Shown here: one piece after another, positions 1 through 724 of the stretch | How positions within the stretch are numbered: the stretch's first letter is position 1 | Layout: each line of letters begins with the position of its first letter | Translations under genes and position numbers: made by a program | Notes under the pieces: generated by a model | What the model saw: the letters and a program-made list of their open reading frames with translations, nothing else | Database searches by the model: none | Told to the model about the DNA's origin: nothing | From: Escherichia coli | Lineage (GTDB): Bacteria; Pseudomonadota; Gammaproteobacteria; Enterobacterales; Enterobacteriaceae | Strand: one strand, 5' to 3' | Assembly (NCBI RefSeq): GCF_003334815.1 | Contig: NZ_QOWO01000120.1 | Length of the DNA: 724 nucleotides

Positions 1-724
1 GTAAGTCACTGTGTGGATTATCATAACGGTAGCGGGTGATATCGCCGTCAGGGGCAGTTTCCTGAATCAGACGGCCCCATTCATCATATTCCCGGCGTAT
101 TTCCAGCCCGTCAGGCCCGGTGGCTGACGTTAACTGGCTGTGGTGGTTATAGTAAAACGCCGATGCCCTGCCATCCGGCGTGGTGATGCGCGTGATGAGG
201 CCCGTCACCACATCCGGACTGTATTCTGTTGTCCTGCCTGCGGCATCCGTCTGTGCCCTGAGCCTGCCCACCGCGTCAAACTGACTCTGCGTGACGCTGC
301 CGTCCGCGTGTTCCTTTTTCACCACCCGCTTCAGCCCGCCTTCACCCTGCGTGTGCAGGACTTCACGGCGGTTCAGGCTGTCGGTGATGGTGATGCGGTC
401 CTTCTCATACTGATACGTGTAACTTAAGCCTGCCGGGTTTAGCTGTTCTGTCACCCGCCCGTCGCTGTCGTAACGGTAACAGATTTCCGGTCGGCCCGTG
501 TGACGGTGCGCCACCATCCGGCCCCGGTATTTATCATCGTAAGTAAAGCTGCGCACCTGTGTATTGCTGCGGTCATACACCGCCGCCAGTTCGCCGCGGG
601 GCGTCCAGCCATAGCGCACCAGCGGCGCGGCAGGTAAATTCTCCGGGTATTCCGGGTCGTGCGTCAGCCACACGGCAGACAGACGGATGCCGTTGTCCCG
701 GCCATATTCGGTGTAACCCGGCAG
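1..724 (-). CDS. rhs: Rhs-family YD-repeat protein (polymorphic toxin core), internal fragment, partial at both 5' and 3' ends; codons run 724..722 down to 4..2, with base 1 belonging to the next incomplete codon
   Basis: Seen in sequence: I reverse-complemented and translated the window by hand; this minus-strand frame has 241 sense codons and no stop. The translation carries repeated YD-repeat signatures: FTYDDKYRGRMV (plus-strand coords ~509-544), CYRYDSDGRVTEQ (~449-478), REYDEWGRLIQETAPDGDITRYRYD (~20-91), FDAVGRLRAQTDAAGRTTEY (~221-280) and YGRDNGIRL (680-706). Established knowledge: this YxYDxxGR[LIV] pattern with ~21-residue spacing and elevated GC defines the Rhs/YD-repeat core, and I recognise the sequence from memory as close to the Escherichia coli Rhs core family. 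The family-level symbol is given because the paralog cannot be resolved; no start or stop codon lies in the window. Confidence 0.9.
   Translation of the reverse strand, partial: MPGYTEYGRDNGIRLSAVWLTHDPEYPENLPAAPLVRYGWTPRGELAAVYDRSNTQVRSFTYDDKYRGRMVAHRHTGRPEICYRYDSDGRVTEQLNPAGLSYTYQYEKDRITITDSLNRREVLHTQGEGGLKRVVKKEHADGSVTQSQFDAVGRLRAQTDAAGRTTEYSPDVVTGLITRITTPDGRASAFYYNHHSQLTSATGPDGLEIRREYDEWGRLIQETAPDGDITRYRYDNPHSDL

What the first reader, a model, noticed from the sequence alone, without database searches (positions are those of the whole stretch)
1..724. Compositional signature: about 60% GC and frequent rare arginine codons
My hand count gives about 435 G+C in 724 nt (roughly 60%). Of 26 arginine codons in the coding frame, 4 are AGG (plus coords 263-265, 257-259, 233-235, 167-169), 6 are CGG and 1 is CGA. 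These are rare in highly expressed enterobacterial genes, and about 60% GC is well above the roughly 51% typical of an E. coli-like host. This fits the known GC-rich, probably horizontally acquired nature of Rhs cores, and suggests low or tightly regulated expression.
Basis: partly seen in the sequence, partly recalled or inferred. Interest (0 to 1): 0.35.

Follow-up and report, generated by a model that had tools for sequence, protein, structure and literature searches.

The report
GC-rich codon bias of rhsC core
The window is an internal piece of the well-known E. coli K-12 toxin gene rhsC, and its 60% GC and odd arginine codons are real, but they are the long-documented compositional signature of enterobacterial Rhs cores, not something new.

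Summary
The counts are right. G+C is 434/724 (59.9%). The 26 Arg codons in the minus-strand frame are CGC 9, CGT 6, CGG 6, AGG 4 (at the stated coordinates) and CGA 1.

The window is 100% identical to E. coli K-12 rhsC, codons 277-517, inside the YD-repeat core.

The host flanks are 51.7% GC. Only 0.3% of 724-nt windows in 56 kb of E. coli DNA reach 59.9%. Dinucleotide and tetranucleotide composition of the core also lies outside the background range.

About a third of the GC excess comes from amino-acid content. The rest comes from G/C-ending synonymous codons (GC3 0.69, against 0.53 expected).

Relatives in five other enterobacterial genera show the same excess. Distant Rhs proteins in Acinetobacter, cyanobacteria and Streptomyces match their hosts, so the bias belongs to this clade and not to the fold. 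Substitutions in the rhsA/B/C lineage run 78 GC-to-AT against 40 AT-to-GC, which fits slow decay of an imported composition.

The inference of low expression is weak. CAI is 0.39-0.40, and 14 of 36 ordinary genes sampled score the same or lower.

All of this has been described since the Rhs work of Hill and co-workers. Verdict: observation confirmed, interpretation partly supported, already known, low interest.

The parts
1..724 (-). Internal fragment of the rhsC core ORF (E. coli K-12 RhsC codons 277-517 plus 1 nt). It encodes YD/RHS repeats of the shell-forming core.
   Evidence: Open frame with no stops. 100% identity to rhsC, placed at 20001-20724 of L001, where the CDS is 19173-23366. NF041261 RHS_core positions 285-525, E = 1.8e-142, and TIGR01643. 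Five PF05593 RHS_repeat hits with E <= 0.001.
167..265 (-). Cluster of the four AGG arginine codons (263-265, 257-259, 233-235, 167-169; RhsC codons 430, 432, 440, 462). Each encodes the Arg of a Gly-Arg dipeptide in a YD repeat.
   Evidence: Codon list. Positions in the full gene and permutation p = 0.006 for the clustering among the 26 Arg codons, not corrected for multiple tests. Alignment with the paralogs: identical in rhsA and rhsB, but only codon 430 stays AGG in rhsD.
491..493 (-). The single CGA arginine codon (RhsC codon 354).
92..700 (-). Span holding the six CGG arginine codons (698-700, 524-526, 518-520, 455-457, 326-328, 92-94).

Best explanation
The window is not a separate functional element. 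It is 241 codons from the middle of the rhsC core, which encodes the YD-repeat shell of an Rhs polymorphic toxin.

Its 60% GC and unusual Arg codon usage are one local sample of a codon-usage signature that runs through the whole 3.7 kb core (GC 0.615, GC3 0.72) and stops at the PxxxxDPxGL boundary. Beyond that boundary lies the AT-rich toxin tip.

Shown here:
- About one third of the GC excess over ordinary E. coli genes comes from the Arg/Gly/Asp/Thr/Tyr-rich repeat composition. About two thirds comes from a preference for G/C-ending synonymous codons.
- The signature is shared by relatives of this Rhs core in several enterobacterial genera, but not by distant Rhs proteins in other phyla.

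Inferred: the signature was inherited from a higher-GC source, or from a past regime that favoured GC, and is drifting slowly down towards the host composition. That is the classical horizontal-acquisition view of Hill and co-workers, with the acquisition placed before E. coli existed as a species.

The AGG, CGG and CGA codons are a by-product of that foreign codon usage in a gene under little translational selection. They are not a dedicated throttle on expression.
For: Identity and family.

Signature across the gene: 100-codon windows taken every 60 codons give GC 0.57-0.69 and GC3 0.60-0.82 through the core (window starts up to codon 1081), then fall to 0.37-0.46 in the windows starting at codons 1201-1321, around and beyond the PISNIDPLGL motif at residue 1238. 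The 500-nt profile shows the same drop.

Decomposition: background genes have GC 0.522. The window's amino acids written in background codon usage would give 0.548, and 0.599 is observed. GC3 is 0.693 observed against 0.531 expected.

Atypical k-mers: the core's dinucleotide delta* is 116, against a background of 60 +/- 19 (0 of 226 windows reach it). Its tetranucleotide distance is 0.482, against 0.203 +/- 0.039 with a maximum of 0.299.

Clade-wide: the homologous segment in E. albertii, Citrobacter amalonaticus, C. youngae, Superficieibacter, Trabulsiella and Atlantibacter has GC 0.59-0.665 and GC3 0.69-0.80, with flanks mostly at 0.51-0.58. The Serratia marcescens core is 67.7% GC (PMC2935791).

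Not fold-intrinsic: YD regions in A. baumannii (0.371 against 0.379 in the flank), Oscillatoria, Calothrix, Undibacterium and Streptomyces lie within about 3 points of their flanks.

Direction of change: polarised substitutions in the rhsA/B/C lineage are S>W 78 against W>S 40. By my own arithmetic on those counts and the 2284 S and 1427 W sites, the implied equilibrium GC is near 45%.

No position-specific AGG conservation in rhsD.
Against: - The clade is old, and PMC2935791 describes rhs as an ancient core component of enterobacterial genomes. A GC3 of 0.69-0.80 retained across lineages that differ by 35-40% in protein sequence is longer than simple amelioration would predict. Something such as repeated transfer, gene conversion or selection may help to keep GC high.
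- An excess of S>W among recent changes is seen in most bacterial genes, so one search is not decisive without control genes.
- No donor was identified.
- Glu and Lys codons stay A-ending (GAA 13: GAG 2), so this is not a uniform GC pressure.
- The background sample is 56 kb, not the whole genome.
Confidence: 0.75

Rival explanations
1. The high GC is an intrinsic consequence of what the protein is. YD repeats are rich in Arg, Gly, Asp, Thr and Pro, whose codons are GC-rich, so any host would encode them at high GC and no foreign origin is needed.
For: The window has Arg 10.8% against 5.6% in background genes, and it is depleted in Leu, Ile, Phe, Lys and Met. GC1 and GC2 are both elevated. Amino-acid content alone lifts the expected GC from 0.522 to 0.548.
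Against: Amino-acid content explains only about 2.6 of the 7.7 points. GC3, which is free of amino-acid constraint, is 0.693 against 0.531 expected. Distant Rhs/YD regions in A. baumannii, cyanobacteria, Undibacterium and Streptomyces match their own flanks to within about 3 points.
Confidence: 0.1
2. The GC-rich composition is actively maintained and is not a relic. Rhs cores are multi-copy recombination substrates (median 3 copies per E. coli genome), so frequent gene conversion with a GC bias, or selection for GC-rich DNA, keeps GC3 high in every enterobacterial host.
For: There are multiple near-identical copies per genome. rhsA, rhsB and rhsC are 97-99% identical. A mosaic patch in rhsC matches rhsD and not rhsA/B. 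The excess persists across six species and in Serratia.
Against: Derived changes in the rhsA/B/C lineage are twice as often GC-to-AT as AT-to-GC (78 against 40), so the core is not at equilibrium at its present GC. Glu and Lys codons are not shifted towards G.
Confidence: 0.12
3. The rare Arg codons, especially the four AGG within 33 codons, act as a translational brake that keeps this toxin gene at a low or conditional level.
For: AGG is enriched about 17-fold over the flanking genes (4/26 against 4/459, p = 4e-4) and is clustered (permutation p = 0.006). The stretch has the lowest CAI of the core, 0.318. AGG is absent from the 26 ribosomal-protein genes.
Against: Codon identity is not conserved. 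In rhsD only one of the four positions is AGG, two are CGG and one is Thr ACG. Relatives carry 1-8 AGG scattered in the same segment. The overall CAI of 0.39-0.40 is ordinary for weakly expressed E. coli genes (14 of 36 sampled genes are equal or lower). From established knowledge, AGG-dependent stalling matters mainly at high mRNA levels. The clustering p-value is post hoc.
Confidence: 0.03

Closest known systems
E. coli K-12 RhsC (b0700, WP_000015200.1), core region
   Same: Identical. The window is the reverse complement of rhsC nt 829-1552.
   Different: Nothing. The window is simply a 724-nt excerpt.
RhsA and RhsB of E. coli K-12 (same subfamily)
   Same: The cores are 97% identical in DNA. 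All four AGG codons and the overall composition are shared.
   Different: There are a few patches of substitutions, for example rhsC AGCAATACA against AGTGGCAAA in rhsA/B. The C-terminal tips and chromosomal sites differ.
RhsD of E. coli K-12 (second subfamily) and Rhs cores of E. albertii, Citrobacter, Atlantibacter, Trabulsiella and Superficieibacter found with a clade-specific motif
   Same: Same YD-repeat core architecture and the same GC excess over the host (segment GC 0.59-0.665, GC3 0.69-0.80), with a raised share of CGG and AGG.
   Different: rhsD is about 78% identical in DNA and most of the others are 60-66% identical in protein. One E. albertii copy is much closer, at 93% protein identity. 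Individual rare codons are not conserved in position.
Distant Rhs/YD-repeat toxins (the A. baumannii PLSDB record, Ralstonia and Burkholderia replicons, cyanobacterial and Streptomyces plasmids)
   Same: YD repeats, and usually a PxxxxDPxG core end.
   Different: Protein identity is 26-35%. In five of the seven hosts sampled their GC tracks the host and does not exceed it. The Ralstonia and B. multivorans copies exceed their flanks by about 6 points. The excess seen in the enterobacterial cores is therefore not a family-wide trait.

Membership tests
RHS element core protein (NCBIfam NF041261, equivalog) | Full-length match above the curated cut-off of 2000 bits | tested here: met
   Full RhsC scores 2683.5 bits over profile positions 1-1261. 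The window alone aligns to profile positions 285-525 with 476.6 bits, E = 1.8e-142.
RHS element core protein | Tandem YD/RHS repeats (TIGR01643, PF05593) | tested here: met
   TIGR01643 scores 67.2 bits in the window. There are five PF05593 hits with E <= 0.001 in the window.
RHS element core protein | RHS repeat-associated core domain ending in PxxxxDPxGL, followed by a variable tip | tested here: met
   This lies outside the window but in the same gene. TIGR03696 matches residues 1170-1247. PISNIDPLGL is at residue 1238, and GC drops to 0.37-0.46 from about that point.
RHS element core protein | [quoted passage not shown] | tested here: met
   Core GC is 0.615 and GC3 0.719. The tip has GC 0.416 and GC3 0.313.
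RHS element core protein | Downstream small ORF (immunity candidate) and orphan core/tip fragments | tested here: met
   The K-12 annotation shows ybfB directly after rhsC, then a 5'-truncated RHS core pseudogene, ybfC and ISAs1 transposase remnants. The function of these genes was not tested.
RHS element core protein | Delivery of the toxin tip through a type VI secretion system | not testable with these tools
   This needs experiments. No T6SS genes lie within 20 kb on either side.
Horizontally acquired (compositionally foreign) DNA | Base and k-mer composition outside the host range | tested here: met
   GC z-score is 2.1, and 0.3% of background windows are as high. Delta* is 116 against 60 +/- 19. 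Tetranucleotide distance is 0.482 against a background maximum of 0.299. GC3 is 0.69 against 0.53 expected.
Horizontally acquired (compositionally foreign) DNA | Variable presence among strains or association with mobility genes | tested here: inconclusive
   3885 of 5426 complete E. coli genomes have a match, with 1-7 copies each. ISAs1 remnants lie downstream. However, the clade is also present in several related genera, and PMC2935791 describes it as ancient.
Horizontally acquired (compositionally foreign) DNA | Phylogenetic incongruence or an identified donor | not tested
   No gene tree against species tree was made and no donor search was run.
Lowly expressed gene by codon usage | CAI clearly below the bulk of host genes | tested here: not met
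   CAI is 0.391 for the window and 0.401 for the gene. The 36 ordinary genes sampled range from 0.26 to 0.69, and 14 of them are equal or lower. Ribosomal proteins score 0.715.

The most novel reading that the evidence does not exclude
The GC-rich codon usage of enterobacterial Rhs cores may be a state that is actively maintained, not a fading relic of import. GC-biased gene conversion between the multiple core copies, or selection that keeps the core free of AT-rich, H-NS-bound DNA while the tips stay AT-rich, could hold it in place. That would explain why the excess persists across genera that have diverged by 35-40% in protein sequence.
Probability: 0.1. Interest if true: 0.4.

Novelty: already known. 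Interest (0 to 1): 0.07.

Why it matters
It matters little beyond annotation. It confirms that a reader working from sequence alone correctly recognised an Rhs core and counted its composition accurately. It also adds measured values to the textbook statement that the core is GC-rich and the tip AT-rich:
- about one third of the excess is amino-acid driven and about two thirds is synonymous;
- the bias was seen in all the enterobacterial relatives recovered, whereas five of seven distant Rhs proteins sampled match their flanks (the two Burkholderiales copies exceed theirs by about 6 points);
- the substitution pattern fits slow loss of GC.

The practical caution is that rare-codon content and CAI do not by themselves show that rhsC is unusually poorly expressed.

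Tried and rejected
- Rfam scan of the window at E <= 1: no hit.
- Promoter and terminator scan: one weak sigma-70-like match on the antisense strand (124-153) and no terminator. Not pursued.
- Chi site (GCTGGTGG): no exact copy. The three one-mismatch matches are not above chance (13 of 200 shuffles reach three).
- Repeats: a 14-nt perfect inverted repeat (241-254 / 679-692) looked unlikely, but 6% of codon shuffles reach that length, and my reading of the rhsD alignment suggests it is not conserved there. I treat it as chance.
- The genome-contig scan used a single clade-specific peptide pattern and returned only 20 loci, all enterobacterial or contaminant MAG contigs. It could not test hosts with very different GC. 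I replaced that test with a tblastn against plasmid records.
- Wang, Zhao and Hill 1998 (PMC107404) is not held in the library, so the original acquisition argument is cited second-hand through PMC2935791 and PMC6287321.
- A literature search for direct rhsC expression data gave nothing usable.
- As a result the ribosomal-protein reference comes from strain SK1144 (L003) and not from MG1655. Its rpsC is 100% identical to that of MG1655.

Full report
**What the window is.** Only one of the six reading frames is open across all 724 bases: the minus strand, starting at base 724 (241 codons, no stop). Its product carries YD repeats. A megablast against complete E. coli genomes gives 100% identity over the full length to rhsC of E. 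coli K-12 and many other strains. In total, 3885 of 5426 genomes hold a match, with a median of three copies each, which reflects the repeated Rhs core. In the K-12 record the window lies at 20001-20724 of locus L001. The rhsC CDS there is 19173-23366, so the window covers codons 277-517 plus one base. The translated window aligns to positions 285-525 of NCBIfam NF041261 (RHS element core protein, E = 1.8e-142). The full protein scores 2683 bits against a cut-off of 2000. Pfam finds five RHS_repeat units with E <= 0.001.

**Checking the observation.** The exact base counts are C 226, G 208, T 173 and A 117, so G+C is 434/724 = 59.94%. The coding frame holds 26 Arg codons: CGC 9, CGT 6, CGG 6, AGG 4, CGA 1 and AGA 0. 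The AGG codons are at plus-strand 263-265, 257-259, 233-235 and 167-169. Every number in the finding is correct. GC by codon position is 0.622, 0.481 and 0.693.

- Flanking chromosome, excluding the Rhs element: 51.7% GC over 31 kb. The 25 flanking genes pooled have GC 0.534 and GC3 0.574.
- 724-nt windows in 56 kb of E. coli DNA: mean GC 0.509, sd 0.043. Only 0.3% reach 0.599, all of them in the kdp operon.
- Full rhsC: GC 0.592, GC3 0.672.
- Core, codons 1-1237: GC 0.615, GC3 0.719.
- Tip after the PISNIDPLGL motif at residue 1238: GC 0.416, GC3 0.313.
- Dinucleotide relative-abundance distance of the core from the background: 116 (x1000), against 60 +/- 19 for background windows of the same size. 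None of 226 windows is as high.
- Tetranucleotide distance: 0.482, against 0.203 +/- 0.039 with a maximum of 0.299.

The refutation condition (a host at about 60% GC, or a count far from 60%) is not met.

**Where the excess GC comes from.** If the window's amino acids are written with the codon usage of 12,146 background codons, the expected GC is 0.548, compared with 0.522 for the background genes themselves. The observed value is 0.599. Roughly 2.6 of the 7.7 excess points therefore come from the Arg/Tyr/Thr/Asp/Gly-rich repeat composition, and about 5 points come from synonymous choice (GC3 0.693 against 0.531 expected). The shift is strong for Gln, His, Asp, Pro, Val, Leu and Arg. It is absent for Glu (GAA 13: GAG 2 in the window) and Lys.

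**Arg codons.** In 26 ribosomal-protein genes the 321 Arg codons are CGT 216, CGC 99, AGA 4, CGG 2, AGG 0 and CGA 0. Against the flanking genes:

- AGG is 4/26 against 4/459 (Fisher p = 4e-4).
- CGG is 6/26 against 50/459 (p = 0.10, not significant in the window alone).
- The four rare codons together are 11/26 against 96/459 (p = 0.015).
- In the whole gene, AGG plus AGA is 15/125 against 13/459 (p = 1e-4).

The four AGG codons of the window fall within 33 codons (RhsC 430, 432, 440, 462). The permutation p for this clustering is 0.006, post hoc. Each encodes the Arg of a Gly-Arg dipeptide in a YD repeat. They are identical in rhsA and rhsB. In rhsD only codon 430 is AGG, while 432 is ACG, 440 is CGG and 462 is CGG. 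Codon identity is therefore not conserved beyond the closest paralogs.

**Expression inference.** CAI against the ribosomal-protein set:

| Sequence | CAI |
|---|---|
| Window | 0.391 |
| rhsC | 0.401 |
| Flanking genes pooled | 0.438 |
| Ribosomal proteins | 0.715 |

Of the 36 ordinary genes scored, 14 have a CAI equal to or lower than the window, for example kdpD 0.377, phrB 0.376, nei 0.382 and abrB 0.317. The codon usage fits a gene that is not under translational selection, but it does not mark rhsC as exceptional. The literature I could read says only that the conditions under which rhs genes are expressed have been hard to define (PMC2935791).

**Is the GC excess a property of the protein family or of this clade?** A scan of one genome per species with a clade-specific motif returned 20 loci. 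In E. albertii, Citrobacter amalonaticus, C. youngae, Superficieibacter, Trabulsiella and Atlantibacter the homologous segment has GC 0.59-0.665 and GC3 0.69-0.80. Protein identity to the window is 60-66%, apart from one E. albertii copy at 93%. The flanks in these loci are mostly at 0.51-0.58. PMC2935791 reports 67.7% for a Serratia marcescens core.

A tblastn against plasmid records found distant Rhs/YD proteins at 26-35% identity. Their YD regions compare with their own flanks as follows:

| Host | YD region GC | Flank GC |
|---|---|---|
| A. baumannii | 0.371 | 0.379 |
| Oscillatoria | 0.455 | 0.488 |
| Calothrix | 0.408 | 0.383 |
| Undibacterium | 0.466 | 0.449 |
| Streptomyces | 0.665 | 0.679 |
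| Ralstonia | 0.705 | 0.641 |
| B. multivorans | 0.647 | 0.581 |

In five of the seven hosts the YD region is within about 3 points of the flank. The excess is therefore not dictated by the YD fold. It is a heritable trait of the enterobacterial cores.

**Direction of change.** I aligned the rhsA, rhsB and rhsC cores with an E. albertii copy and rhsD, and polarised changes at sites where the two outgroups agree. Derived changes are S>W 78 and W>S 40. Using the 2284 S sites and 1427 W sites from the same call, my own arithmetic gives about 0.034 S>W changes per S site and 0.028 W>S changes per W site, which implies an equilibrium GC near 45%. The core therefore seems to be losing GC, as expected for sequence that arrived GC-rich and is ameliorating. 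The caveat is that recent changes are GC-to-AT biased in most bacterial genes, and I had no control set.

**Comparison with what is known.** That Rhs elements have a G+C-rich core of about 1200 residues with YD repeats and an A+T-rich divergent core-extension is stated in PMC2935791 with reference to Hill and co-workers. The proposal that the subfamilies diverged before acquisition by E. coli is Wang, Zhao and Hill 1998, cited for exactly that point in PMC6287321. The original paper was not available. PMC2935791 argues that the family is ancient in Enterobacteriaceae, with gains, losses and occasional lateral transfer. This agrees with the clade-wide signature found here. The finding is a correct rediscovery of a documented property of a named gene.

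**Verdict.** Novelty: already known. Interest is low. The only reading with some novelty left open is that the GC-rich state is actively maintained, for example by biased gene conversion among core copies. The substitution counts argue against this but do not exclude it.

Noticed in passing
window 167-265 (minus strand; RhsC codons 430-462): All four AGG codons lie within 33 codons, and each encodes the Arg of a Gly-Arg dipeptide in a YD repeat. The surrounding 100 codons have the lowest GC3 (0.60-0.63) and lowest CAI (0.318) of the core. Only one of the four is AGG in rhsD.
   Followed up: partly
window 1-724 and the rhsC core (L001 19173-22883): The G/C-ending bias is not uniform. Gln, His, Asp, Pro, Val and Arg are strongly shifted, but Glu (GAA 13 : GAG 2) and Lys remain A-ending as in E. 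coli. This hints at a gammaproteobacterial style of codon preference in whatever source set the composition.
   Followed up: no
window about 561-570 (minus strand; alignment A1 columns 197-206): rhsC reads AGCAATACA here, as rhsD does, while rhsA and rhsB read AGTGGCAAA. This small mosaic patch suggests gene conversion or retained ancestral sequence among paralogs.
   Followed up: no
window 140-427, plus strand: A 95-aa ORF runs antisense to rhsC. A weak sigma-70-like match sits just upstream, at 124-153 on the same strand. Nothing is annotated there in K-12, and long antisense ORFs are expected in GC-rich coding DNA.
   Followed up: partly
window 241-254 and 679-692: A perfect 14-nt inverted repeat lies 424 nt apart. 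6% of codon-shuffled versions reach this length, and my reading of the rhsD alignment suggests it is not conserved there, so it is probably chance.
   Followed up: yes
L001 23366-28440 (downstream of rhsC): The element continues with ybfB (31% GC), a 5'-truncated RHS core pseudogene with its own GC peak (0.636 at 24001-24500), ybfC (37% GC) and three ISAs1 transposase pseudogenes. This is the classic array of an orphan tip and H-repeat remnants.
   Followed up: partly
L007, L009, L016, L020, L021, L026: Enterobacterial-type rhs core pieces (61-98% protein identity to the window) sit on short contigs of genomes labelled Oscillospiraceae, Lentisphaerae, Akkermansia, Collinsella and Methylobacterium. 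These are most likely binning or assembly contamination, not real occurrences.
   Followed up: no
L027 (NZ_CP064203.1): A PLSDB 'plasmid' of 3.97 Mb from A. baumannii is chromosome-sized and carries almost no gene table. It looks like a mislabelled chromosome.
   Followed up: no
L011, L012, L014, L015, L024 (Citrobacter amalonaticus): Five rhs core copies occur in one genome, and the ORFs containing the match are only about 780-950 codons long. The cores may be truncated or frameshifted in this assembly.
   Followed up: no
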